64,000 nucleotides of DNA from Psilocybe cubensis (Eukaryota), in NCBI GenBank assembly GCA_017499595.2, contig CM039001.1, forward strand, positions 3,658,001-3,722,000. The letters are read 5' to 3'. The notes beneath the pieces were generated by a model that did not search any database, was not told the origin of the DNA, and saw only the letters and a list, made by a program, of their open reading frames with translations. Numbering within the stretch: the stretch's first letter is position 1; every line of letters begins with the position of its first letter. Below, piece after piece: positions 41,792 through 61,560 of this stretch. A program made the position numbers and the translations under genes.

Positions 41792-41799
41792 TATATAAA
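41792..41799 (+). promoter_or_regulatory. TATA box of first P450
   Basis: TATATAAA about 40 nt upstream of ATG 41839. Confidence 0.5.
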
Positions 41800-41838: not shown

Positions 41839-44046
41839 ATGGAACATTTAGTTTCAGTTTGTCTACTCCTCATCCTCCTGGCAATTGCCTCGCAAAGATG
41901 GGTAATCATGCCGGGTTTTCATAGCATCCTACTTCGTGGTCCACCTAGGGACGACTTCTTGTTTGGAGTAATGCGTCTCATGCGCCTATCCACACATCCT
42001 AACGTTCTTTTTGAAAACTGGGCGAATAGATATGGGTCTACTTATCGCATACCTCTCCTACTGGGATCCCATGCCATCGTTGTCAGTGATATGAAAGCTG
42101 TGACGCACATATTTTCCAAGGACACCTACACTTACGTACGATCTCCTGGGTTCAGGGCCGTCATCGACCAAGTCATTGGTCGCGGTCTTTTGTGGGTTGA
42201 AGGTGACATCCATCGGCGGTAATAAATATTCTACATTCATGAGCTCGTGAACTCATTCTTTACGACGCAGGCAAAGGAGAACTATGAACCCCGCATTCAG
42301 TCCTACAGTGATCAAGAGGATGACACCGGCATTTTACGACGCTACATATAAAGTTTGTCGTCATCATCTTACATCGTCTCTGTTTTAATTATCTTTATTT
42401 GTAGCTGAAAAATGTCTGGGACAAAATGCTGGATTCAAACGCCCCCAATGCGGCCGTAGAGGTTGAAATGCATGAATGGCACGTAGCGCGCATCAACATC
42501 TCTGTATTATACTGACGCCTTACTGCAGGACAATGAAGCTAGTGTACGTCTCGCTTTGTTCCCTGGTATAACGGTCAAGGGCAAGCTGATCCATCACTCC
42601 TATGTGCTTAGACTGGATACAATAGGCACCACTGTGTTTGGTTATCATTTCAACTCTCTCGAAGGAAAGAAATCGGCCGTAGAAGAATCCCTCCGGATCT
42701 ACAACACCACCATCCCTACCACGTTGGGAAAACTTGCATTATCCTTGTACATGTTTCTCCCATGGGTCGGGAAGTTACCAACCAAGCGAAAGCAGCTCAA
42801 CACGAACTTATCTGAATCGGCACGTGAGATGCTTGAAAGTATCATGGTAAATCAGAATCAAGACCAGGCCCGCGATTCTCAGATACTCGATGAATCGATT
42901 GTAGAGTTGTTTGGTAAGCCCTTCAGTCCTTTCATATATCCAGTCAATTCAGCCGATGACTTGCAATCTCTCACTTGTGCGCTTAGTGAAAGAGGCAGAA
43001 GACGACGGCGTTGACCTGCAGTCTCCGGAAGGAAAGGAAGAAGTCCTGGCTAAGGTAAGTATGTCCTGCGCCCACTTCCCTCAGTGTCGAGCTCAAAAAA
43101 TTGTTGCGTTGTAGATGAAAAATCTGCTTATTGCTGGATCCGATGCTCCTGGAAGTGAGTTTGCTTTCAGTATCAATATGTTAAATTACTGATACAAATT
43201 AATGTACAGTAATTCTTGTGGTATGTTTTCTGAGTGACCGTCGAAGACGACGAGTTTTATGATCAATCTGCCTCCAGTGGGCCTTGATTGAACTCGCCCG
43301 ACATCCAGAAATTCAAAAGCGAGTCAGAGAAGAAGTCATGGCCACTCCGGGAGCAGAGTTGGAATGGCGAATCCTTCAATCTTCTTGTCCCTTCCTAGAT
43401 TCAGTTTTATCGGAAACATTGAGATTACATCCGACTGTTGGGGAAACACACCGCATGGTGGGCTTTTATCTACTGGCCAGCATATGAATTATTGACACGC
43501 AGCTCATAATCAATCAGGCAAACGAAGATGACGTCCTCCACTTAAAGGAACCTATTCTCGACTCTTCTGGACAGCTAGTGGACTGTATTCACATACCGAA
43601 AGGAACAAGCATCATCATTCCTAACCATTACTTGAACTCTTCCACATCGATCTGGGGTCCGGATGGCCTCAACTTTAATCCTGAGCGGTGGATGGGGACG
43701 TATCTGTCGAGGTCGGGCGATGAGCCTAATGATGCGATCTCTGAGAGGCGTCGACTATGGACCTTCGGCGATGGACCCAGAATCTGTGTTGGGAAGGCCT
43801 TCGTGATGGTACAGTTAAAGGTGATTTTCCTCTTTATTATCTATTGCTAGTTTCTCATAACTTGACTGACTAAACCATTCTAAATGTTATAAGATTGTAC
43901 TGGCAGTTCTGCTACGTCACTTCGTTTTCGAACTGCCTCAAGGCCCTAATACGCCATTGGACTTCCACCTGTCTCTCGTCCGCCGACCGAAGGTAAAGGG
44001 GATGAAAGGAGCTGCGATGCCATTCCTTATTTCCAGAGTCGACTGA
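41839..44046 (+). CDS. Cytochrome P450 with atypical I-helix (multi-exon, includes micro-exons)
   Basis: N-terminal membrane anchor, GLLWVEGDIHRRQR, ETLR (ExxR), PERW and heme motif FGDGPRICVG. I-helix reads LLIAGSDAPGIILVWALIEL. Confidence 0.93.
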
Positions 44047-46734
44047 GCCTCCCTTTAAACATCTAAGCGTCAAGGATGCTGACTCACTAATGACTGTATG
44101 ACTACTAGCGGGTTGTAATGTAAATTAAGGAGTTTTAACTCTTGTTTTGTTTGTTGTATGTCCTTCGTGATCATGATAATTTTTGCCAATTATATGATGG
44201 CACCATTTTCGCTTGTGAGCTCAAAATGGATTTTGTCAGTCTAGATCTAAAATGACAATGTCGGTAGGTCGGAATGCTCAGGCTGTCAACGTTTTCGCTC
44301 AAACTAAATTGTTTCTGACTCCGAGAATGGGGATACGGCATTCGACGGGCGCTTACCCGGTACGACGTGACCAAGGCGGCCCGGTCATATATGTAGATCA
44401 GATAGCTGCCAAAGCCTACTGGAGTAACCTACTTCTTTCTGCGTTTCTTTGACTCTGCAAGCTTGAAATAGCATATGATTGATAATTTAATAGTATTTGT
44501 CCTCAATTGGGGGACACAGGATGAGATTATCATTCACTGCGCTTTTCGCTCTTCCGAAGGGCAATTTCGGAGCTTTGAACAATTTCGTTACAGCATGTGC
44601 ATAACGCACGTTCAGAGATAAAATTACAGTGATGGCGGGATTTTCAGTTTTAGAGCATATCACTCGGCCTGTTGTTCATTCTTCTCGCCCCCGAACTGAT
44701 TCTTATCTCAAACGCCGGTAGGGCGATAAGAGCACTGCACACGCCGAATCTAAGACGTTCCACAAGTCCATTTCACTAGGCTGCTTGAACTTAAGGGTGT
44801 TTTCCAGTGTCCACCGACTCAGAGTCTTGGTAGGGTAGGGGCGCAACAGCAATTCTGTCACCATCCGATTTTCAATTACGTTTGCACCGCAAAATATTCT
44901 CTTGTCCCACAGGAACATTATACATAGAAAACTGACCCAGGTGACAAGAACTGACGTCAAGCTATACGTGTAAATGATTTAATGAATCACATTTATCATC
45001 AGAAGAACGTGTCTATATTTCCAATGCCATGCATCTCGCAGTTTTTGCATATACACTGAACAAATCGGTTGAGAAGATCATTGATTTCACAAAACAAAAA
45101 TTCCACTCAGATGAGCTCAGGACCAGGCTTTTAAAAAGATCGTTTTTGTATCACCGAGAGCATGCCTGAGTGAGTAATGCCTACTGCTCTGCAGCTGTAC
45201 CTATCTATTGAAATCTTATTAAACTTCACATTCCTTGAACTTCGGACCTTTCAGTTTTCACCAAGTTCCCATTTGGTTCTGACTCATGGATGTAATAAAC
45301 CAAGAATATCTCTGACATGTCTTCGCCGGTATTGTGTGCTTACCTTTTGATTAACGACAGATAGAAGTTTATGTCAAAGGAAGAGAAGAACGCATTGCAA
45401 GATTCTCGCTGCCGCGATATTCATGCGTTGCGTTCGGATGTTTGACCTTTGAGTCTAACTCATCCATCGTAATTAAAATTGAGAAAGAGTATTATATTTT
45501 GAAGTGATATTTGACACATATTTCTCTTGACAATGAGGCCTAGATTGAGAGCGATTAAACTACAAATTTAGTTGATGCATTAACGGACGGTGGGTGGAGG
45601 AAATAATTTATCCACCTAAATTCTATCTACAAGTCAGCTTTGTTTTGTAAACATCTACCTGGAGCTGAAGAACCACCTTGGTTTGTTTGCTCTTTCGGAT
45701 CAATTTCTGTTTCCCGCGCTTGGTCTAAAATAAATCTGTCCCGCAGGCAACGCGCCAATGCATAAGATTAGTGCCAGGCCGAGTTCTCTCGAGTTCCTTT
45801 GAGCAATTCACCTGGATTCTTGTTATGCATGACACTGAAGCGTAAAGACATGTCGGTCGCTTTTATACTTTTAAATATTAAATCATACAGTCGACGTATG
45901 CATTGCCTTGGATGAAGGAATTTCTAGTCCTGCTCGTTAATTGTTCTATGCTGATAAACTTCCGTGCCATAAGCATATTCTGTAAATGAGCAAGAGATCA
46001 GTATCAAATTAAGCGTAGCGTTGGTTGTAGCAGGCCAGACTGTAGCGGTGCAACGATTTTATGTAATGCTGTGGGAGCCGGAGTGCTCCCTTGGCGTGGC
46101 CAGATCTGGGATCTCGATCGATGAGTGCCATCAATGTACCCGAATGCCTATATTTATCGAGGATTTGTTTGACAGACGATCACCTATTTATAGACCATCC
46201 CAGATGAAGCGGGCTGAAGTTAATTGAGGGATAAGATCAAACGTAAAAGGGACTTAGACCTAGATTAACTTACTACCACAGGTTTTTGCGAGTGCTCATA
46301 GATTTCTTCGGGGTGCGGGACCAGTTACTGCTATCTAACCGTGAACTCAGCTCGGTGTATTGTGAATCAGGGTGTGAATAAGCTCCTAATTGCTTATTAA
46401 ATTTGTAACAGCGTACGTAGTTGGAAGTCGTATTGGATTCAAAAATATATGAAAATTAAAATGCTGGGTTTAACACTATGACTGACCAGCTTTGTTCTGT
46501 AAATTTTGAAAAAGACTCGTCTTACCAGCGCGTGATGACATAGTATATCACAGCAACCAACTTTGGAGATAGCAATCCTTTGCGATTAAGGAATATTAAC
46601 CCATCATACCAACACCGGCCATGGGCTCAAATGCCTGCCCGATCACTCTACCTGGAATGTAGCATGCAAACTCTTGTCTGGCAATACGGCGAGATCTCCA
46701 ACAAGTCTCCTCATGTTTCTCGCCGACATGGATG

Positions 46735-46741
46735 TATAAAA
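46735..46741 (+). promoter_or_regulatory. TATA box of UbiA-family gene
   Basis: TATAAAA about 55 nt upstream of ATG 46797. Confidence 0.5.
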
Positions 46742-46796
46742 GCCTGCAATCGATAGCAGTTGTTCAACATCCTAACTCACTTCACAGTCACTCAAC

Positions 46797-48003
46797 ATGG
46801 CTTCCACTGTCTCGACCATTGTAAATTATCTATCTTCTTCTAGTATTCCATCACTCTCTAGTCCTATAAATGCTCTTAATCAGGCCGCCCCTACCCTCCC
46901 ATATAATATTTTTACGCTATGGTTGTTCATCAAATCAGACATTGTTGGAATTATCATGCCAATTGTACGTTCATTCTACTTCGATGAAAATACCTATTAA
47001 TCATCGACTTGCTAGGTTGCTTTCGCTACATTTATTACCAGCAACACCTCACCGATAAGGGCCGCCAAAGCTTTCACTTTCGTCACACTTCATCTTCTCC
47101 AATTCTGCATATCAAACCAAAGTCTCTCTCCCGAAGAGGATGCGAAGAATAAACCCTGGAGACCTATTCCGGCCGGGCGCTTGTCGGTCAGGAGTGCATT
47201 GATCTTGCGCTGGTTCATGTTGCCGGCATGCCTTTTGTTATCGGCAGCCTTCGGCGTTCTCGATGTCGGTATTGTGATGTCAACGGCAATTTTCTTGCAC
47301 AACGAGTGTGGCTACGACGCGCACTGGTTCCCAAGAACAGCCCTTAATGCGATTGCATACACCACATTCGATACTGGTGCCATCCTTATTTCATTGGGAG
47401 GTGAGTAACTGTTACTCGCGTTCTCAGGAGCAATTACTAAGCCCTTTCTCTGTAAGATCGCGACAAGATTTTCGAGGCCAAAACTCTCCTGCCATTGGTT
47501 ATCAATGCTTCGATCATCTTGACCACCATCCATGCTCAGGACTTCCGGGACCTCATCGGTGACATCCAAGAAGGTCGCAGCACCATTCCGATTGTCCTTC
47601 CCAAATCCAGCAGGGCTTCTATGCCTGTACTCCTGGTAGCGTGGATGGCCGTCCTCATGGCAGTGCACCAAGAGTGGAACGTTGTTGACTGGGCAGCTTT
47701 GGCTCTCGGCACCGTGGTCGGCCTTCGCTTCTATTTCATTCACGAGGCCGCAGCGGATCAGACCTCATACACTTTATACAACGTCTGTCAAAGTATCTCT
47801 CTCATATCTCCAATTCCCGGCTGACATATCCCTTTCAGGTCTGGCTGATTGTCGTTCGAGTGGCACTTGTCCTAGCTCAAGATAGTATCACCTCGGCTGG
47901 GCCGAAAGCCGGGTGGATTGATCTGCTCCCCAATGAAGTGGGAACCCAGTTGTTCAAGCAAATCAATACCACCGGCAGCGTCTTCCCCAAGTTCGAATTT
48001 TAA
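46797..48003 (+). CDS. UbiA-superfamily intramembrane prenyltransferase/terpene synthase (Fma-TC/EriG-like motif type)
   Basis: Exons 46797-46964, 47016-47400, 47457-47782 and 47839-48003. Motifs TLWLFIKSD, LHLLQFCISNQSLSPEEDAKNKPWRPIPAGRL and HAQDFRDLIGDIQEGRSTIP; several TM helices. Confidence 0.9.
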
Positions 48004-49091
48004 AAAAGCACCTCCATTCATTTCTCCTAGACACATGTGGCCAATAGAGCCTAGAACACGTAAATTAAACAATGCATACAGCCATTGCTATTCCATCTTT
48101 TACCTATCTATTTAGCTAGAGTTGTTGTACTTTAAAAGTGGCGTTAGGATTTAATATAACTTCATCATCTCCACCCTCCTCATTGGTTCATAAATTCAGC
48201 CAGCGTCAGAGTCACTAGACAAAGGACATGCAACTTTGAGAAAGCACAGGTACACAGGATTTCTATCAACTTCGGTTCGAAAATTCTACAAATCGTCAGG
48301 AGGAGCAGTGTTTCGTTGAAAATTCGTCAAGATATTAAAATATTGTTATTCCATTGCAAGGTCTCATGGCCGAAATCTCGCTATGATGGAGAGTTGAACA
48401 TGGCCCACGTGTATCTCACTGAAGATTCTGGGACTCTGCAGATACTGTTCGATGATGACGAGCAAATTAGTGAGTTCCCAAAATAGATTACCGATGCACA
48501 TCTCGGAACCGCGTCTAAGTTTACACTATTAGTGTTGCAGAGATCATAATTGTTATGATGGAAAAATTGCTCTGAGAATGTAAAGGCATGCCGACGCCCG
48601 ACTTGTCTCACTATCTGCGGTGTTCATACAAAAGTATCCATTTATCCGTTCCAAAGGCCTTATTTTTTCAGTGTTGTAACCTCCTCTCCTTGGAATACCC
48701 GATTGAGTCAATGATCGCACAGTTCCCGTTAATGAACATATCGCCAAATTTGTGTCCATGTTTAAATCATCAGTAGGCCACGAGCAGGCGTCAACAAGTA
48801 TAAGCGGGGATATGAACACTATAAGAATCTTTATATAGATGTGTATCAACGCATAAGGTGTCAGGCTCAAAATACTTTGATGCGTGATGTGTAGCGAACT
48901 CGGCGTCGTTTGATCTGGAGATAGCGCAGTGGGGGAAGAAAGACGTGATTTCACAATGGTCTCCACCACACCCGCTTTTAGAGTCAAGCCGAACAGCATT
49001 GTTGCTGCTCCTGACATTGCGATCGATGAATGGATGTAGTGAAGACATACCGAAGACCGACGCGTCTCAAGGCAGGCCGAGAGGGTGGATT

Positions 49092-50381
49092 CATCAGCAA
49101 AAGTGCTCGGATCCCCAAATGCCTTGTCAAGGCATTTGGAGGCGTCCAAAGGCCCCAATGCCCGAAAGGCATTGTGCGGTTCGTAACGAGAGACTCCGAA
49201 GACTGAAAGGCTTCGAATTATTTATTCCAAGGAAATGATTTAGGTAGTACTAAATATAGCCAAATCATTTGGTTAAAATTTGAGAGTGTCCGTAACATTT
49301 AGGCAACATTTGGGAGTCCCAAAAACATTTGGCAAACATTTGCCAGTGTTTAAATGTTTTACACTGTTCACATGGTTCCTTATTTAGTGGATCCCTCAGA
49401 TTATCATAGCAAGTAAAAAGAACTTGTTGCATTAAGAAAACTTATACTACAACATGACTCCAAAAGGTACAGAGAAGCGAGAAAGTGGGTAAATAACAAA
49501 ATGATGCTGAGATGATGTCATCAATAGATGTTACCCATGAATTATAGGAGCTACTTTGGTTGCATGATGTAAGCAAGGTGTGTGTGCAGAAGTGCGCATA
49601 TACTCACCTAAAAGTTTGGGAACTAGTGAATAATTATATACCAAGCCGGATATCCAGTAGATCTAAGGCAGAAGGAGAACGGTCTACGGAAAGGCAGATA
49701 CATGGTCAGTTGAGGATGATCTAATCAGAAAGGAAGTGGCAGAATTACCTGTGAGTTAGATTCAGCTATGATATACGAAGACTTAGAGTTGAAAAGTCCA
49801 AGCCCAAGTCCCACCAAGCGTCGCCGGAGTAGTGAACATGAGAGTATGTGGAAAGAAAGAAACGGGGGTTGAAAGAGATTATTATGCACAAACAAACAAA
49901 TATTTGATCTCCGATTCACTCCGATTCATGCTGATCGCATTGTGACTTCGTTGACAGTCGAGAAATTGTACAGACCGGGTGACCAACTGTACAGAATTCT
50001 AATTAGAACTAATGTGGCTGTATAGCCAGTAAATTTTGGTGTGGATGAATTATTTCATCAGCATTTGAAAGTCCTGTAAACATTTCTCATAACCGAAGTG
50101 TAAAACCAAATGTTTTGTGACCTCTTTTAATTTTGTTAAATGATTCCTTCAAGGTTGCACAGTCTACGAATTTTTTTTTGTAAATTGTAGTTACTAGAAA
50201 TTATTTGGTGCTTGTTTTGTGCTTCAAAAATGTTTGTGGGGCCTCCAAATGACCACCAAATGATTTGAGTGTTCCCAAATGTTGCCCAAATGTTTTGCGT
50301 GACATTACTGTGTCACGTAAAACATTGGCATGCCTTATAAGGCTCCCAAGGCATTTGGGGGTCTGGTCACTTTTGCTGATG
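49092..50381. mobile_element. Non-autonomous DNA transposon (~1.29 kb) with terminal and subterminal inverted repeats
   Basis: Left end CATCAGCAAAAGTG-N7-CCCCAAATGCCTT is the reverse complement of right end AAGGCATTTGGGG-N7-CACTTTTGCTGATG. Flanked by TT on both sides. Inverted arrays of AACATTTG/CAAATGTT at ~49290-49345 and ~50225-50300. No transposase ORF. Confidence 0.8.
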
Positions 50382-50902
50382 TTGCATGACCAAAGATTCG
50401 TACCAACTTAGAGTATGGCGCCCATGGCATTAGTTTCTCGGTTTTATTACTACACAGGCTTTATATGTCTGTGGCTGGCTATTTTGCTCTCGACCCCTCC
50501 AGAATGGACCTGCGGTGGGGCAAATTTTCATACGCGTTCAGTCATTGTAAACACCTGTCAACGAGATAGTGACGCGCAGGAAAAGGAATCAGATTCTTTG
50601 AATAGTCTATCAATAGATGATCCAATAAAATGCGCTGGAATTGATACTCGAGAGTTTACGCGACGACGCGGAGTAAGGCAGAGTAGAGTGTCTGCAGTGT
50701 AGTTTCGGCGCTAACTGCCTTAATGAAAGCGTTAAGGGACGCCGAAGCTTACCTAACCAGATGTTAATCAAAGTCCGACTATTGAGGCGAAGCGGGGAGA
50801 GGCGCATACCTCGGTTACCATCGCTTGCATCCTGGTCCTCAACAGACTCCTGACTGTGTTCTGTATCCTACGGCCTAGAATATAGACTCTCTGGCGAAGC
50901 GA

Positions 50903-50910
50903 TATAAAAA
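50903..50910 (+). promoter_or_regulatory. TATA box of second P450
   Basis: TATAAAAA about 100 nt upstream of ATG 51010. Confidence 0.45.
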
Positions 50911-51009
50911 TGTATCCTGACAGCTGGAAAATGCATCCTCATTCCCCACAGCACTCCAACAGTTGCAAAGCAGTCCTACTCCAGTCAACGAAACAGGTTT
51001 TCTTTCAGT

Positions 51010-53049
51010 ATGGACTACACCACCTTCCTCACCAGCGTTGTGATTCTGGTGTCGTCATATAGCACCATCAGATTTCTTCAGCATCGCAAACGCTCAAGGA
51101 ACCACCCTTTCCCTCCTGGTCCTGAAGGTTACCCAATCATCGGAAATGTCCTTTCTCTCTTCCAGGGAGAGCGATGGAAGATCTTCAGTGACTACAAGAA
51201 ACAATATGGTATGTCCTTTAACTCTTTTAGAAGGATTTTCATCTCACAGTACGCTTTTAGGTGACCTTGTTCGTCTTCACGGATTCGGAACGGACCTCAT
51301 TGCTTTGAACTCGTTGGATGCTATTGATGATCTTTTGGGCAAAAGGGGACACATCTACTCTCATCGCCCTACTTTCACCGTTGTTGGAGAGATGATGGGT
51401 CTTGACCAGGTCAGTCTATTCCTCTTTTCGGATCACAATTATACAATTCTGACATGCCTTACAGAGCACACCCCTCCAATCCTACGGACCCGACTGGCGC
51501 ATGCACCGCAAGTTGGCCCACAACGTCCTCAGTATCACCGTTGTCAAGCAATACTGCCAGCTCCAAGAAGATTTGGCTGTACTCCTCTGCGACGAATTCA
51601 TCAAAACTCCCGAGAAATTCTTCTCCTCCACCCGACTGTAAGAGTCAGATCAGCAAGATTAAATACATTTACTAACGAACTACTTTAGCTTCGCCTCTCG
51701 TCTCATGCTCACCATCACCTACGGTCTGTCTGCCAAGGATGCCGATAACTTGTACGTCGAACACGCCCACAAGACCATGGCCATGGTTTCCAGGTCCAGT
51801 ATTCCCGGAGCTTTCATCGCCGATTTCCTTCCCTTCTGTGCGTTTCATTGTTTATTTAATTAGTTTCAATGTTTCTAATATCCCACACAGTGAAGCATGT
51901 ACCATGGCCATCTTTCCGCAAGGAAGTTGAAGAGGGACGCGATATGATTGATGGCCTCGTCAGACTGCCTTTCGAACACGTCAAGCGTGATATTGTATGT
52001 TGTCCCTAACCCAATTCCGAGAGATACGCGTTACTCACTTTTATTTCAAGGCTGCTGGAACCGCCCTCCCATCTCTTACCAAGGATCTCCTCACCACCTC
52101 CGACCCCAGCCTTGACCACCACATCAAATGGACCACCGGCTCTATGTACGGCGGTAAGATTATCCCGTCGTATTCTCGCTAGCTTAGTTGCTGAAGTCTC
52201 ACGATGAATAGCCGGAGGAGAATCCACCTATGCTACCGTTTCGACCTTCATTTTGTGCATGGTTCTGTATCCCGAGGTCCAACGCAAAGCTCAAGAGGAA
52301 GTTGATCGCGTCATTGGAAAGGGCCGTCTCCCTCTTATCGAAGATATGCCCGATCTCCCCTACGTCAACGCCATGATCAAGGAGACTATGAGGTGGCACC
52401 CAATTGTGCCTTTGAGTGAGACCTTTGGCGAGAAATTTAGATACTCTGGCTGATACTCTGATCGATAGCTTTGGCTCGCCGCGTCGCTGAGGATGATTAC
52501 TACAAGGGCTTCTTCATTCCTAAGGGAACACTCGTCATTCCTAACGCATGGTTAGTTGATATATCCCGATGATGAGACTTTAGCCTGACCATTATTCCTA
52601 GGGCCATCGCTTTGGAGTCAAACCCTAAATATGAACCCAGCGAGTTTATTCCTGAGCGCTTCTTGGACAAGGATGTTAAGGCCACCGACCCCGCTCTTTG
52701 GGCTTTCGGCTTCGGAAGGCGGTGAGTACACGCCACACTTCTATCAAAGCCATCTAATCTCACTATTTAACCGTTGTTAGTATCTGCCCTGGCAAGCACT
52801 TGGCTGAAAACTCTCTCTTCATCGCCATTTCTATGATCCTTACTGTATTCAACATTTCCAAGGGTGACCACGAAGTCACTGCCGCGTTCGAAGAGGATCT
52901 CATCAGGTACGTTTAATCTTTATCTTCTGATTTCCAGAGATTCACACTCCATTTTCAGTTACCCCAAACCCTTCAAGTGCAAGATTGAGCCCCGTTCTGA
53001 CCTTATCAAGAAGCTCGTCACCACCAGGGCTGCTGAGGTCTACGTTTAA
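51010..53049 (+). CDS. Cytochrome P450 (CYP64-like/OrdA-like group common in basidiomycete secondary metabolism)
   Basis: [13 protein letters not shown]-helix [22 protein letters not shown] (ExxR), PERF and heme motif FGFGRR/ICPG; ends RAAEVYV*. Confidence 0.95.
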
Positions 53050-54099: not shown

Positions 54100-56482
54100 T
54101 TAGCTACCAAAGGTTTCAATGTGAAGAGAAACAGATGGTATTCCCTTCAACGCCGCCATCGGGCTTGAAGATCCGGAGCTTAAGGTCCGGCGTACTGATG
54201 CGGCCAAGTTAGATGGTCCTGCAACTGTGAAAATTGGTTTTAGATCCTGAAGTTCAGTTCGTAAGCTTGTAATTACACATACCGTTGACCGCAATCTGAC
54301 CAGGAGACATTTGAATCTCCTCGTTAAGTAAGGCATCCAGGTTGGGCCTTCCATGAAGGATAGTGAAAGAGCGCGAGTATTCAAGGATATCACTCTGCGA
54401 AATTTCTTTCTTGAGCGTGGATCCGGAAGACGACAATGATTCGCTGTCAGAGGTCCGGGTCGTGACATTGGAGATCTCTGCGACAACGGCCTTTTTCCCA
54501 GTGATGTAGATTCTAGGATCGATAACAAGAGAAGAAGATGTCAATGCCATAGCGTCCGTTAAAGCCCTTGATATCCATCTAAGATGCTCTGAGAAAGAAA
54601 GTACAAGCCGTTACTATCTCCGTCAACGTGTAGAAGCTAAAATTAGGCACACCTGTATCACGGATCGCCCAGATGAAGACGATACGTCTAACGGCAGAAG
54701 ATCCATTTTGGGCGTTGATTCTAGATATAACAGATAGTGTCAAGAAGCAATTAATCATTTCAGATATGAATCAATGACACTACACACCTGGCGAGATTAA
54801 GAAGGAGCGGCAGCGTATATGAGATCCCGGATCCTCCTAATTTAGAACTGAGATTACTTTGAGGCCGTAGAAGCAATGATAAAACAGCGTACCCGCGATG
54901 AGAACACAAGTTGTAAATCTGCGAAGATCGGGTGGCATTCCATAAGGCCCATCCAACAAGGCCGGGACGCGGTATCCATGATTCTTCCTCGCGAGCTCAC
55001 GGAGTCTCTTTGTCAAGCCGTCCCTACCACGAATGAGGAAAACGACATCCGTTTCGTCGTTAGTTGATCTTTCTTCAGGGATGCTGGCAATAGTGAAGGG
55101 GTGGGCCTCGAATGGGAGATTGCTGACGGAGGGCAGAACTACGTATGCGTGTTGTCCGGGTGTCCATGACATTTCACGGCGCATGGTCAAGCGTATAGTG
55201 TCTTCCGAGACGAGTTCAACTAACGCATCTGACGGATGAGAACGGTTCCAGAATCGGCCGTTTAAGACGGTGCGTGAAAATCTCAGAGTCCTGTCGAAAC
55301 CCCATACGAGGAGACCTGGCCAAATATACCCCCCGAAACTGATTGCGGGTCAGCCAGGCTGAAATTGATGGAGTCCATTGATGCTTACTGTAATTCCCTT
55401 GCGTGGTAGTATCCAGCGACGATGAAGATGCTAGAACATCCAGTTAGACACCACGATTATAGGAGTTAAAAAAAACTTACAAGATAAGAATGATGTGCGC
55501 AATGAGGAAGAATTCAAAGGCAGCTCGTCTAATTGGGCGAATGGAGAGGATCGTTGCAAGTGTTAGCGCCGTAAGACTTATGGCACCTGATCGCATCCAG
55601 TTGTGCGAAAGATCCAGGTTCTTTGGAAGCCTGTGAAAGAATGTCAGTACGTAGATTAAACACGCAAAGAGTGTTAGCTTACTTAGAGTGTATACGGGTT
55701 CCTGCGTGAATCCAGAAAAACATGAAGTTCGTTCTTGCCGCAGCGCGATGGAGTACATTGAGCTGATATCGCAGTAAATAAATAGTGATTGTAAGAAATA
55801 TGAAGAATATTTACCTTTTCATGGCTCACTCCAGTCAACCCTTGTACAGTCATGAGTAAAATCTTAACCAATAGAAATAAATAACTTTACATGAAATCAC
55901 GTTGTTCTTTCCTGCCAGTGCCACGATTAAAGGAATTTGACTGGACGCGATGAGCGCAGCGCGGTCCTGATACATCATAGGCATGAGGTTACGTGCTTTG
56001 GAAAACGATGAGTATTTTGAGATTACTTCAAATTTTGCAGTTCACTTACTGTCCACAAGAAGCCATATGAGCATGGCAACAATATAAACAACAATGAAAA
56101 TCTGCTCAATGACAGAGACTGTAAAGTCCGAGCCAAACGGTATCCTCCAACGGAAGAAAAATATCTTGAAACCGGATACCACCGCAGTAAGACCTCGTCG
56201 AGCCATAGAGGAAGAAACGCGCCGAGCGGGTGCGTTTTTCTCCTGATCATTAATTTTCTCGATAGAAATCTTAGCTTCTGAGCCGGGGTGCGGTTCGGTA
56301 ATTGGCGTGAACCAGGCCACTAGGCGGCGGATAACATTGACTAGAGTCAAAAAGGCAAGAACGCTGCCCAGGAAAATCCACAATTGCCTAACATGGGCAA
56401 CCTGCTTGTGATTTCTGATGAGTCGATCAGCAGCTGTGGATGTCGCGCGAGAGCTGAGGATCGGCGCGTCGGTGATAGACAT
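54100..56482 (-). CDS. Ferric reductase-like transmembrane oxidoreductase (FRE family)
   Basis: LHRAAAR and FEFFLIAHIIL heme-His helices, WTPGQHAY, HPFTIAS (FAD), DGPYG, LIAGGSGISY, GRPNL and LHIETFG. Confidence 0.92.
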
Positions 56483-58923
56483 TTTGAGTGGAGATGAGTT
56501 GCCTTTGGAGAGGGCCGGAAATGCAGACTTCCAGAGCGAAAAATCGTCTCTCTTTATTGCGTTGCCTAAGGAGACAAAACTCAATCTCGCACCTGTACAA
56601 CAGGCGGTACGTGTAGAATATTTCTGTCATGAGATGATACATTGGGTCTGTGTTTAATCTGCGTAGGTATACAGTACTGGCAATCCAATACATTCTCTGA
56701 GAAAAAAATTCCCAATGAGTTATGCTTCGAGCCGTATTGAGATGATACCTGAGAGTTTGTGTGTGAATACCAGTCCGTTGAGTTGAGCTGAGGGGCTGAG
56801 TAGTTCAATTTCAGTTGAATCGAGTGCAGAGTGTTGGCTCGGGGAGGTAGCCGCCACACAGTGATAGGGCGTCGGGGAGCGACAATAACGTTCACTTATT
56901 TTGAGCACGTCAAATCCAGTGACTGAGTATGTCAAATCACGATGTATTATTTCTCGTGACTTCAAACCCGAGGCTACGTACTGGCGCAGCTACAGCGATT
57001 GGTTTGAGCGCTTCGTATAGATCTCAGGCACAGGAAATGCCCGATCTTTACTACTTTTGGCCATTGATGATGATTTCTGATGTCCTCCGTCATATCTTGC
57101 TGGTAGCGCGTGCGAAAGCTTTATGTGTTATCTATATTAACTTTGGGTAGTCTGGGAAAGGCAGTCCCACTTTTATAAAGCGAGAATAACGCGTGTTATT
57201 TATAGTAAGAGCACATCTGTTAAGCAGTTTCCTAATAAATGAATTTATAACCCACATAGACAACGAATTGTATTGAACTGAACCTATAAACGAAGCTGGC
57301 GTGTGTCCACATAGGATCAGAAACAGGTAAAGAATATTGAGTGAAAGTAAATGGAACCTACCTCAGCCATGTGCGTGCGCAAATTAACGGACTGAGGTAC
57401 GAAGAGAAAAATCTACAGAAGCCCAGGGAAGCACCCCAAATATCATGTCAAGATTTTTTCGGATTACCCAAAATTGCAATTTTTGTCTGCATTTTGCGTT
57501 GTTGAGAGCCCAGGAAGTGCTTCTTTGACCGGGGATTGCGGATTTAAAACCAAAAATAAGTATGATAGGCAGTCAGATGTGCACATTCAACATTGAGGTT
57601 GCAATACCATCATTTACAGCATTGATTAATTTAATACGGACATCTAAGCAATTTTATGAATGCGCCAAGAGTTTACAATCCATATATTATCTCAGAGGAT
57701 TGTGGAAGAGTTGTGTATCGTTTGTAACAAGAATTTGGTTCTGTTAAATGTTTTCAAGTCAGGAGTGAAAAAAATCCCAATTACATGACTGTTCGTTTAT
57801 TCAAATGTTTTAAATTTATATTTTATTCTCTTGTTGTGGCTAGACATATAATAGAGAGCAATTAAATACTAGAAGTAATTACGTGGAAGGAAGCCAACTT
57901 GAAGGAAGGAACTGTCCCCAGAGCAAAGGTCAAAAAATTGATTTATCCACGACACAATATTAGAGGAATACAAGGGATACCCGATTCCATAAAAAGATGA
58001 AATAGAGAAACGTGAAGGGTGTAGCAATGAGTCTATATAATATTTCCCGCCGTTGTCTCGTTGTTTGAAGGTGGGCGCTCCCTCGGCTTGTCATCGGCGG
58101 CGCGGCGGAGTACGCAAAAACCCGGTGATATCCATCATTTAACCCTCCATTGTTCGTTTCTTACCACTGACTAGCGAGCTCGACTCAGGTCAAGCGAGTG
58201 GAAGCGAAGCGTTTGCATTAACGTACCTGCTCTATCGCGCTATGTAATGCTGGCATTAGGAGCGGTTGACCCACATTTAGTCCTCGTCCTGGTGTGCAAC
58301 TGGCGACATGCGTCTGATTACCTCGCCTTTGTATGATTTCACATCTACCTGGAGGAACGCTTTGCTCCGACGACTTCGACCGCCTTGTGGCGCAAGGATA
58401 AGGATGACACGTCCACCTTTAACCTTATCGTAGAACGTGAGCTGACGATACCCTTGGCACTGAACCTCTGATGAATGACGAAACACACCGGGCATCGTCC
58501 GTTCGTTGCCGTATGGCGGTTATTGTTGATTATTTTTGATAATGCAGTGGAGAGAGAGCAAGGAATCCAAACGTCGCGACAACAAGGTTACCCAATGGTT
58601 CCTGCATGCGGGAGTGATCGGCCAATTCTGCTCCACAAAAGGTTCACATATTGGAAAGGCTGCACTGTCTCCGAGTCACTGTCATGATGTGAGTGCCCCT
58701 TGGACTCAACATTGGCGTTGGATATGGATCATACACTAACTCAAGCTTTAAGGCCTTTGCATATACAGATTCGGTTGATGCACAGAATGTAGCTTGATCC
58801 GTCGGATTGAGCCAGCATCGAGCGAGACATGACGGTGATCATACGGACAAGGTGGGGCAGCGATAATTGCGTTACAAAAAATTCGTTTGGTTTTACAGAG
58901 GCAAGACAGAGGAAACAGGCATC

Positions 58924-59877
58924 TCATGTGTTGGAATCAAGGATGCGAACTTCCAGATCATCACCAAGACCGTACATCTTCTGCCATGACCCATCTTCCA
59001 CCCAATTAAAAAGACAGCTGCCTGCGCCATTTTGGGCACCAAACATGTTAACCTCGAGTGCCTCCACCACCCATTCTCCCATGTCATCCGTGGAACAGTG
59101 AAGATCGATCGTATACCCCGACTCAGGCAGTAAATTTCCCTCCTTTGCCTTCTCTCTAAAGGCTTCATGACATTCCAGCATTTTGCGGACGACCAGTCCC
59201 AATTCCTCCTCTGGCATGTCCGCCCACTTCCCCGAGGTCGAGTATTCGCTGATGGCACGGACTTGCCCAGAAGGCGGTACGAACATTCTAAACTCATTCG
59301 CCGTGCTAATATCTTCCCTCCATGGTAAGAAATGCAGCACATCCGTCGCTCCAGGCACACTGCTCGACTGCTTCAAATAGTCATACGCCCTGCGACTCGT
59401 GCATATGCTCTCGAGCACCTCTCGTGCGCTTGTGAACGGTCCTACACCACCGCGTCCGTTCTTTGGTGAACCGGTGTCCATCCTCGCAAACCACTGGCGT
59501 CGGCCGTCAAAGCATCCTGGTACGCCGCGGGTGATGCGCCGGGCAAGCAGCTCGAGGTCGACGTCGTGCACCTCGGAGACGCGCCGGTCGTGTGTGCTAA
59601 GCGAGACGTGGGCGATGCGCGCGAGGAGCTGGCAGTCTTCATGTGAGAGCGGGTAGGCATGGTGCTCTGGTGGATTCGCGCGCAAGCTGTGGATGATTGG
59701 GACGAAGATGGAATAGAGCTTTGAGCGCAGGATCGTTTCGAGATCGGACGCGGTCCGTTCGGGTTCAAGAGCTTTGAGTGCTTCTGGCAGCTCAGCGTAT
59801 TCATGGTAGGTTGTATTGAAGCGATCTGGCTCTTTCTCAATTGCAGAAGACGGTATTTTCTTGAAGATTATCTGCAT
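58924..59877 (-). CDS. Intronless CDC123/D123-like (R2K-clade) ATP-grasp protein, 317 aa
   Basis: Single-exon ORF with WFARMDTGSPKNG, LHFLPW...EFRMFV...AISEY, YTIDL and LEVNMFG...GSCLFNW, in the order and spacing of the Cdc123 ATP-grasp motifs. Confidence 0.8.
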   Translation of the reverse strand: MQIIFKKIPSSAIEKEPDRFNTTYHEYAELPEALKALEPERTASDLETILRSKLYSIFVPIIHSLRANPPEHHAYPLSHEDCQLLARIAHVSLSTHDRRVSEVHDVDLELLARRITRGVPGCFDGRRQWFARMDTGSPKNGRGGVGPFTSAREVLESICTSRRAYDYLKQSSSVPGATDVLHFLPWREDISTANEFRMFVPPSGQVRAISEYSTSGKWADMPEEELGLVVRKMLECHEAFREKAKEGNLLPESGYTIDLHCSTDDMGEWVVEALEVNMFGAQNGAGSCLFNWVEDGSWQKMYGLGDDLEVRILDSNT

Positions 59878-61560
59878 GGCGGTGTCTTTGGCTATCTAAT
59901 GAGGAAATTCTCATTTTGCTTGAGTTGCAGGAAGACACGTACTGGTAGACAAAGAGGTAGAGAAAAGGAGGCAATTCTGCTGTTGTTGACCGGGACCATT
60001 TAGCTCGGCCCCTGGTCCCTGGCGGGTCCGAAATCGTGTCGGAGTCAGATCTATTGCTTCCGAGACGCGTTCCCGTTCGCGACGCGTCGTGGTGCGACGT
60101 TACGAGTCCCTCCTTTAGGAGGATTGCTTTTATTACTTGCTAGGATTCGTTGACACGACTGGGCCTTGCTGGAGGAGCGGGCATCTGACTGGCTTTAAAT
60201 TTCAATCAGATCATATTGCACAGTTGCACGGTAAATCGAAATCAATACTTGGATATATACACTCTTCCTTCCCTACATCAGATCCATGTCAACATACAGC
60301 ATGATCCTAGGATCTTTGAAGGAATGCACCGCCAAAGTGGTGGTCAATGTGTTGATGCGCAAGGCATGCCGGTGCCACTGTGCTCGGACATCACCAATAA
60401 TAGTTGGCCAAAGGGCTTATTTGGCGATCCTTGGCTTTTGATCCCAACATTTGGTTTTCAGTCCTGGATAGTTCTCAGCAAGGTTGCAGCAAGGTTACGA
60501 GTACTCCCTCCAGCCACGATTTTGAAAGCTTTTATCATCCGGCGATCAATCGGCACGTTTTGAGCGGAGATCCAATTCTCCATTGTCCCTGACTCCCTGT
60601 TTCTTTGAGCAAAACGTACTGTCAATGAAACGTTCAATGAGCCGGATATATATTGTCTTTATGTCTATCATCTATCTTCAAGCTTCATCAGCTGTCAAAA
60701 GCCTCACACTTGTGGCTTTTTGCAGGGAATGAAATGCTTCTTGAGCCGGCAATAACTCGGAAAAAATGTCGGAATTCTAAATGCCTTCCCACCCATGAAA
60801 ATTTATTTGAATTCAAATTCACTACGTGCAGGGTTAAATAATTTGTCGCGATTTATGTGAAATTTATTTCCGGTTACCTTCCAAATATAGTAATTAATTC
60901 AATATATCCTTCACGTATTTAGCCAAAACGCAAATAAGTTTTCCGTATTTTGCCATAAATTATTTAACACTGCATGTGGTGAAAGATTGCTCGTCGCTTT
61001 AGCATTGATAGGCCTGTATATTTTACGTAGTTGCCTACAACAGTCAATGACTATTCATCACTGTAGATGGTGTACTTATTTCTGCAGGCCTCCAGCAATT
61101 CAATAGTTGTTCATCACTCTAGCATAACTTTGCATAACTTGCATTAATAGCCCCTACTTAAGCTGTGTCGGACTCACAATACAGCTCGGATTCGCGAAAT
61201 TGATGCTGCATTCATTATTTGAGTCCAATCCAGTCAGATAGAATTATCACTATCGCATCAAGATTTTAAATACAAGACTCACTTCCATGAAAGGCCGATA
61301 TCTTGAAAAAGTAGAATCCAATGTAGGATATTCTCCTACATTTTGAATAGAAGTAGAACTTCGAAGTTAACCTATGCATCAACTACAGATCAAGGTGTCA
61401 GAGAATAACGCTAAAACTGTAAGTAATGTTTGTATATTAAAAGTTCTTCCAGTTAAACAAAAAGACACGTTGCACCTTTATTATCAAGATAGGTGTAAGC
61501 AACACATACATTAAAATGTCGCAATGCAACTGAAACTGGTCTTACTGAACAGGGCCCTTA

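What the first reader, a model, noticed from the sequence alone, without database searches (positions are those of the whole stretch)
41839..53049. Candidate non-canonical terpenoid gene cluster: P450 - UbiA-type terpene synthase - P450
Seen: three co-oriented genes, each with a TATA box and long intergenic regions, and no other intact gene between them. The UbiA protein has NQxxxxxED-x-x-NKPxRP and QDxxDxxGD motifs. Established: this motif type occurs in membrane-bound UbiA terpene cyclases such as Fma-TC (fumagillin pathway) and EriG (cyathane diterpenes), unlike the housekeeping Coq2/Cox10 enzymes. Inference: a cyclase plus two unrelated oxidases making an oxidised sesqui- or diterpenoid. 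Tools keyed on class I terpene synthases could miss it. No GGPP synthase is adjacent, which slightly favours FPP as substrate. The product cannot be predicted from sequence.
Basis: partly seen in the sequence, partly recalled or inferred. Interest (0 to 1): 0.8.

Follow-up and report, generated by a model that had tools for sequence, protein, structure and literature searches.

The report
Mushroom membrane terpene synthase gene cluster
Three neighbouring genes of the mushroom Psilocybe cubensis, a membrane-bound terpene synthase between two cytochrome P450 oxidases, most likely make an oxidised terpenoid; this is a known kind of cluster, but this one is undescribed and two of its enzymes lack a usually conserved active-site residue.

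Summary
Three intact + strand genes of Psilocybe cubensis lie here: P450a (535 aa), a UbiA-type terpene synthase (UTS, 347 aa) and P450b (499 aa). Each has a TATA box; a young 1.29-kb transposon sits between the UTS and P450b. The UTS carries the Fma-TC/Tps1A-type motifs; Coq2 and Cox10 lie elsewhere in the genome. Orthologues of both P450s are two locus tags apart in P. cyanescens (middle gene unidentified). In another fungus, a sister of P450b lies head-to-head with a UTS. Best reading (0.6): FPP is turned into a sesquiterpene, then oxidised by P450b and probably P450a, as in the Antrodia tps1 cluster. Not shown: activity, substrate, product, co-expression. Against: 0 of 5 His-type relatives with long contigs have a P450 neighbour. 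The two P. cubensis terpene papers I checked never mention UbiA in their main text. The scan noted a similar cluster in another genome. New member of a known kind.

The parts
41839..44046 (+). P450a, 11 exons, 535 aa. ExxR and heme-Cys motifs intact; I-helix AGSDAP lacks the conserved Thr (motif starts at 43133). GC-AG intron 42479-42528; microexons 42529-42543 and 43210-43220.
41792..41798 (+). TATA box of P450a
46735..46741 (+). TATA box of the UbiA gene
46797..48003 (+). UbiA-type terpene synthase, exons 46797-46964, 47016-47400, 47457-47782, 47839-48003; 347 aa. N90/E97/D98 and D213/D216/D220 conserved; His151 at the conserved UbiA Tyr column.
49092..50381 (.). Non-coding 1290-bp DNA transposon with 35-nt terminal inverted repeats and a 2-bp target duplication (TT here); 17 full-length copies at 97-100% identity in the genome. 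A passenger, not part of the pathway.
50903..50909 (+). TATA box of P450b
51010..53049 (+). P450b, 11 exons (intron 1 is 51209-51260), 499 aa, ordinary I-helix AGGEST; 96-98% identical to the P. cyanescens orthologue over its well-annotated parts.

Best explanation
A compact terpenoid gene cluster. The membrane-embedded UTS binds Mg2+ and the diphosphate with its two acidic motifs, ionises farnesyl diphosphate and releases a sesquiterpene or sesquiterpene alcohol, most likely via the nerolidyl/bisabolyl route of Fma-TC, Tps1A and Pb_BisA (inferred from family; FPP about 70%, GGPP about 20%, other about 10%). P450b, with a normal I-helix, oxidises the scaffold first (inferred). P450a, lacking the I-helix Thr, most plausibly acts later on an already hydroxylated intermediate (inferred by analogy with EryF; the weakest step). 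Shown: gene structure, family, motifs, spliced transcripts of P450a and partly P450b. Not shown: any activity, product or co-expression.
For: The best-scoring database protein is named fumagillin beta-trans-bergamotene synthase by its source (automatic name). E97, D213, D216 and D220 are invariant in 95 of 95 aligned relatives and D98 is kept in 94 of 95. The spacing D98 to D213/D216/D220 equals that of D100 to D215/D218/D222, which are essential in Tps1A (PMC9835599). The model has the UbiA fold (pLDDT 88; best match 6m31, E 1e-7). Cox10, Coq2 and a Coq2-like transferase with their own motifs lie elsewhere in the genome. P. cyanescens orthologues carry tags CVT25_009143 and CVT25_009145, both with a longest contig of 156,359 nt. 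An unnamed 112-aa protein is 85% identical to UTS exon 3. In metagenome locus L082 a UTS lies head-to-head with a P450 that groups with P450b (SH-aLRT 97, 190 columns, quick tree). No polyprenyl synthase was among the 66 window ORFs scanned.
Against: His replaces the conserved UbiA Tyr at position 151; the Tyr that probably corresponds in Tps1A (Y155) is essential (mapping inferred, Tps1A sequence not seen). A P450 was found in only 14 of 79 related loci (9 of 47 groups; 8 of 24 groups with a locus of 8 kb or more), in 0 of 5 His-type groups with 8 kb or more, and none was P450a-like (19 P450 queries, other clans may be missed). The genome's second UTS has no P450 within 80 kb (4 queries). The three promoters share no 7-9-mer above chance. 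Gene order shared within one genus is weak evidence, and the middle P. cyanescens gene is unidentified. Motif I has Ser where the published consensus has Gly/Ala. In tps1 only one of three P450s showed activity in yeast.
Confidence: 0.6

Rival explanations
1. The UTS is a working terpene synthase, but the trio is not one pathway: at most P450b belongs to it, and P450a (or both) are neighbours kept by ordinary gene order within the genus.
For: No P450a-like gene lies beside any of 79 related UTS loci, and 0 of 5 long His-type groups have a P450. No shared promoter word. The two P450s diverge at very different rates, 75% versus 96-98% identity to P. cyanescens. At least 84 P450 loci exist in the genome.
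Against: Low chance of P450s on both sides; a UTS plus P450b-sister pair in L082; the trio is a closed block between URB1/NopRA1 and a ferric reductase.
Confidence: 0.25
2. The His-type UbiA is not a cyclase. It transfers a prenyl group to a small acceptor or water (prenylated aromatic, or a linear alcohol such as farnesol or nerolidol), and the P450s oxidise that product.
For: His151 is invariant in the 10 relatives of alignment A3 (chosen as His-bearing) and present in 25 of 95. The nearest solved structures are prenyltransferases. I found no characterised enzyme that I could place in this subclade.
Against: Motif I lacks the NDxxD of the transferases and motif II is QDxxDxxGD, the pattern PMC9835599 gives for cyclases. 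No gene for an aromatic acceptor was found nearby.
Confidence: 0.1
3. A decaying or silenced cluster: the UTS is inactive, the substitutions are drift, and the transposon disturbs regulation.
For: Recent transposon insertion; non-consensus residues in two of three enzymes.
Against: All frames and splice sites are intact. The odd residues are shared with relatives: AGSDSP in P. cyanescens, AGSDPP in two metagenome proteins, and His151 in Hypholoma, Dichomitus and Grifola. P450a is spliced in two RNA runs.
Confidence: 0.05

Closest known systems
tps1/tps2 clusters of Antrodia cinnamomea (Tps1A/Tps2A (Z)-alpha-bisabolene synthases, P450 Tps1H; PMC9835599, main text parts 1-4 of 5 read, supplement not available)
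   Same: Basidiomycete UbiA-type synthase with NQ...ED and QDxxDxxxD motifs at the same spacing, clustered with P450s.
   Different: tps1 has ten or more genes including a methyltransferase and reductases; here three genes. Motif I has Ser for Gly/Ala, and His probably stands where Tps1A has the essential Tyr155. Orthology not tested.
Fma-TC (fumagillin, Aspergillus fumigatus) and EriG (cyathane, Hericium erinaceus), as described in PMC9835599
   Same: Same enzyme family and motif type; the source's automatic name for this protein is that of Fma-TC.
   Different: No PKS or GGPP synthase found beside it (their presence in the fma and eri clusters is recalled).
Pb_bis cluster of Penicillium brasilianum (BisA UbiA-type bisabolene synthase, BisB P450; PMC11393291 and PMC11745945, passages read)
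   Same: Small cluster of a UTS and a P450.
   Different: Ascomycete; one P450 plus a GPCR-like protein and a decarboxylase.
CubB-CubI sesquiterpene synthases of P. cubensis (PMC12247026 passages; PMC13096983 passages and parts 2-3 of 6)
   Same: Same organism, terpene scaffold enzymes.
   Different: Soluble enzymes; CubG1, G2, H and I have 316-329 aa and 4-6 introns, against 347 aa and 3 introns here. The word UbiA occurs 0 times in either main text.
P450 EryF (CYP107A1), Ala in place of the I-helix Thr (PMC6430224, passages read)
   Same: P. cubensis P450a has Ala at that site.
   Different: Unrelated bacterial enzyme; P450a also has Pro at the next position, and the site is Ser or Pro in its relatives. 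Analogy only.

Membership tests
UbiA superfamily | PF01040 match and UbiA helical membrane fold | tested here: met
UbiA-type terpene synthases (Fma-TC/EriG/Tps1A) | Motif II QDxxDxxxD | tested here: met
   QDFRDLIGD, aa 212-220; definition from PMC9835599
UbiA-type terpene synthases (Fma-TC/EriG/Tps1A) | Motif I NxxxG/AxxxD instead of NDxxDxxxD | tested here: inconclusive
   NQSLSPEED: N, Q, E and D kept, Ser at the G/A place. Ser is the commonest residue there among relatives (46 of 95; Ala 15, Gly 12).
UbiA-type terpene synthases (Fma-TC/EriG/Tps1A) | Conserved Tyr (Tps1A Y155, essential) | tested here: inconclusive
   The family Tyr column (Tyr 60, His 25 of 95) holds His151. That this column is Tps1A Y155 is inferred, not aligned.
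UbiA-type terpene synthases (Fma-TC/EriG/Tps1A) | Groups in a tree with characterised cyclases | not testable with these tools
   No named characterised sequence was in hand. In the tree (quick search) it groups with Hypholoma and other Agaricomycete proteins.
UbiA-type terpene synthases (Fma-TC/EriG/Tps1A) | Makes a terpene from FPP or GGPP | not testable with these tools
   needs expression
Housekeeping Coq2/Cox10 | NDxxD/NQxxE motif followed by RTxxRP; orthology | tested here: not met
   Those motifs are in other genes of this genome (L010, L013); both sit on saturated branches.
Biosynthetic gene cluster (UTS plus P450) | Co-location conserved in relatives | tested here: inconclusive
   P450 pair two tags apart in P. 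cyanescens; one UTS plus P450b-sister pair; absent around most other relatives.
Biosynthetic gene cluster (UTS plus P450) | Co-expression | not testable with these tools
   Only contigs of two RNA runs of one study were available; they give no expression levels.
Cytochrome P450 monooxygenase (P450a) | Heme Cys motif and ExxR | tested here: met
   FGDGPRICVG, ETLR
Cytochrome P450 monooxygenase (P450a) | I-helix acid-alcohol pair | tested here: not met
   AGSDAP here; the orthologue's AGSDSP aligns with AGHETS/AGHETT of solved P450s. Ser in P. cyanescens keeps an alcohol; Pro in P0034 and P0035.

The most novel reading that the evidence does not exclude
The His-type subclade of UbiA terpene synthases, found across Agaricomycetes, has different cation chemistry from the Tyr-type enzymes and makes a new scaffold or a terpene alcohol. 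The Thr-less AGSDxP P450 family then performs substrate-assisted or non-hydroxylating chemistry (ring cleavage, rearrangement or cyclisation). Psilocybe would then have an unrecognised, genus-conserved oxidised terpenoid outside the surveyed Cub enzymes.
Probability: 0.15. Interest if true: 0.7.

Novelty: new member of a known kind. Interest (0 to 1): 0.42.

Why it matters
A 2026 paper says it completes the survey of sesquiterpene capacity in P. cubensis (PMC13096983, conclusion read), yet its main text never mentions UbiA enzymes; this genome has two distinct UTS genes. The cluster is a three-cDNA experiment that could add an oxidised terpenoid to a much-studied mushroom with few known non-alkaloid metabolites (PMC12299699, passages). 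It would also test what the Tyr-to-His synthase subclade and the Thr-less P450 family do. The architecture itself is ordinary.

Tried and rejected
Expression: no RNA holder was listed. The two guessed RNA runs laid (X11, X14, one study) have no contig over the UbiA gene; contigs show presence, not absence, so this is no evidence either way. Identity of CVT25_009144 and of the 112-aa protein P0076: the cluster-member look-up could not be made, and a full-text search for six locus tags found 0 papers. Shared promoter words: none above chance. Structure of P450a from a 6-row alignment failed (pLDDT 39) and was not used. The metagenome scan with the single protein found 0 relatives among 108 candidate stretches. 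The reciprocal search of P0043 in the genome was ambiguous by bit score; by identity over covered residues P450b was best of the 11 own-genome loci compared, 46.7% against 44.4% for the next, which covers only 196 residues. NCBIfam gave only sub-threshold prenyltransferase hits. No solved UTS structure matched. An intervening gene was rejected: 0 of 13 intergenic ORFs have a Pfam hit. That this is one of CubG1, G2, H or I was rejected on length and intron number. The downstream ferric reductase was considered as a cluster member; nothing links it. Literature: 10 searches found no paper on this locus. The library lacks most subscription papers (Yang 2017, Luo 2022 and the CubA paper were not seen; PMC12981382 is not held). 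The supplements of PMC9835599 and PMC13096983 could not be read and may list this gene or its relatives.

Full report
Source and gene models. Database proteins matching the window are labelled Psilocybe cubensis by their source. The window is G000:C4:3658001-3722000 of a 46.6-Mb assembly. Splicing by coordinates gives three stop-free + strand genes: P450a 41839-44046 (535 aa), UbiA 46797-48003 (347 aa) and P450b 51010-53049 (499 aa). P450a needs a GC-AG intron and microexons of 15 and 11 nt. Spliced contigs of run X11 support 9 of its 10 introns among the rows shown (12 rows were cut), including both microexons; X14 supports part of them. The 559-aa database model is therefore mis-spliced. P450b is covered in X11, with a loose end matching its last splice. 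TATA words lie 47, 62 and 107 nt upstream of the ATGs. None of 13 intergenic ORFs has a Pfam match. The block lies between a NopRA1/URB1 gene and a ferric reductase on the other strand.

Transposon. 49092-50381 has 35-nt inverted ends, 17 full-length copies at 97-100% identity and a 2-bp target duplication at 5 of 6 sites examined, this one included. It explains 1290 of the 3006 bp between UbiA and P450b. A 2-bp duplication suggests the CMC/EnSpm group (recalled, not tested).

The UbiA protein. It matches PF01040 and folds as a UbiA membrane protein (pLDDT 88; nearest solved chain 6m31). It has 1472 relatives at E up to 0.001 among 50%-identity representatives; the nearest Atlas clusters are mostly Basidiomycota. 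The nearest named relative is from Hypholoma sublateritium (56%). In 95 aligned sequences E97, T208, D213, D216 and D220 are invariant. PMC9835599 (parts 1-4 of 5 read) defines UTS motifs NxxxG/AxxxD and QDxxDxxxD and shows D100, D215, D218, D222 and Y155 of Tps1A to be essential. D98, D213, D216 and D220 here have the same spacing. Two departures: Ser94 at the G/A place (46 of 95 relatives share it) and His151 in the column where 60 of 95 have Tyr and 25 have His. That column aligns with the conserved Tyr of chlorophyll synthase and of 6m31; its identity with Tps1A Y155 is inferred. The query groups with His-bearing proteins of Hypholoma and two unnamed sources, near Dichomitus, Grifola and Mycena, at modest support (80-86; quick tree). 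Cox10, Coq2 and a Coq2-like transferase are separate genes. A second, Tyr-type UTS (36% identical) occurs twice about 42 kb apart in an identical repeat, with no P450 hit in 80 kb.

The P450s. They are 24% identical to each other. P450b has a normal AGGEST I-helix and is 96-98% identical to P. cyanescens CVT25_009145 over its well-annotated parts (91% overall). P450a is 75% identical to CVT25_009143, and its nearest paralogues match at 31-47% over single exons. Its I-helix reads AGSDAP; the orthologue's AGSDSP aligns with AGHETS/AGHETT in solved P450s, and two metagenome relatives read AGSDPP. The Pro is thus a family trait (4 of 4 close members) and the Thr site varies (Ala, Ser, Pro). EryF has Ala at this site and involves a substrate hydroxyl in O2 activation (PMC6430224, passage). 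This suggests, by analogy only, that P450a acts on a hydroxylated intermediate.

Is it a cluster? Flanking by P450s on both sides is unlikely by chance (about 1e-4 to 7e-4 under even spread). In locus L082 a UTS of another subclade lies head-to-head with a P450 that is 66% identical to Agrocybe P0043 and 45% to P450b, and these form one clade against 10 own-genome paralogues and 11 other P450s (SH-aLRT 97; short segment, X-filled rows, quick tree). Against: of 79 loci (the best kept of 305 relatives), 14 have a P450 hit (9 of 47 groups; 8 of 24 groups with 8 kb or more; 0 of 5 such His-type groups; counted by hand), and none is P450a-like. Sixteen larger loci show mostly NACHT/ankyrin, MFS, transposon and housekeeping neighbours (87 ORFs scanned). 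Promoters share no word above chance. Gene order within a genus is expected to be partly conserved anyway. Co-expression could not be tested.

Mechanism, committed. Ionisation of FPP at the two Mg2+ motifs, a C15 product probably of the bisabolyl family, oxidation by P450b, then a later step by P450a (0.6 for a working UTS plus P450 pathway; the order and the role of P450a are less sure). FPP is favoured because the characterised fungal relatives I could read about (Fma-TC, Tps1A/2A, BisA, the bisabolol synthases) use it and no polyprenyl synthase was found among 66 window ORFs scanned. EriG shows that GGPP is possible. Rivals: chance neighbours (0.25), prenyl transfer or a linear alcohol (0.1), decay (0.05).

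Novelty. Ten literature searches found no account of this locus; two P. cubensis terpene papers have no mention of UbiA in their main texts, though one supplement was unreadable and subscription papers are mostly missing. Verdict: a real, well-formed candidate cluster and a new member of a known kind, lifted a little by the two non-consensus active sites and by the gap in a survey described as complete. Interest 0.42.

Noticed in passing
window 49092-50381: Young non-coding TIR transposon, 17 near-identical copies, 2-bp target duplication. An RNA contig of X14 skips 57 nt inside it with CT..AC ends (a minus-strand intron), from this or another copy.
   Followed up: partly
G000:C4:3343001-3367873 and 3385042-3409320: Two 100% identical copies of a stretch of at least 24 kb, about 42 kb apart, each with a second, Tyr-type UbiA terpene synthase; a recent duplication or an assembly artefact.
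   Followed up: partly
window 42479-42611: The database model of P450a (559 aa) reads through a GC-AG intron and a microexon; RNA contigs support the 535-aa form.
   Followed up: yes
window 51010-53049: P450b is 96-98% identical between P. cubensis and P. cyanescens, while the next relative found is 42% identical (39 candidates only): strong constraint or recent exchange.
   Followed up: no
L082:27-3329: Head-to-head pair of a UTS and a P450 of the P450b/P0043 clade in another fungus.
   Followed up: partly
L076, L104, L107, L112, L114, L118, L121, L122: Eight groups of more distant UTS loci have a P450 on the opposite strand 2-5 kb upstream; possibly a recurring cluster type.
   Followed up: no
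window 54100-56490 (-): Ferric reductase gene (Ferric_reduct, FAD_binding_8, NAD_binding_6) just downstream of the trio.
   Followed up: no
window 58924-59895 (-): Long open frame with a weak ATP-grasp R2K_2 match (E 0.0095).
   Followed up: no
window 46797-48003: The UTS has N- and C-terminal extensions (about 30 and 40 aa, low pLDDT) absent from its nearest relatives.
   Followed up: no
P0139: An 893-aa database protein joins a flavin-monooxygenase-like part (judged by eye) to a UTS domain; a fusion or a merged gene model.
   Followed up: no
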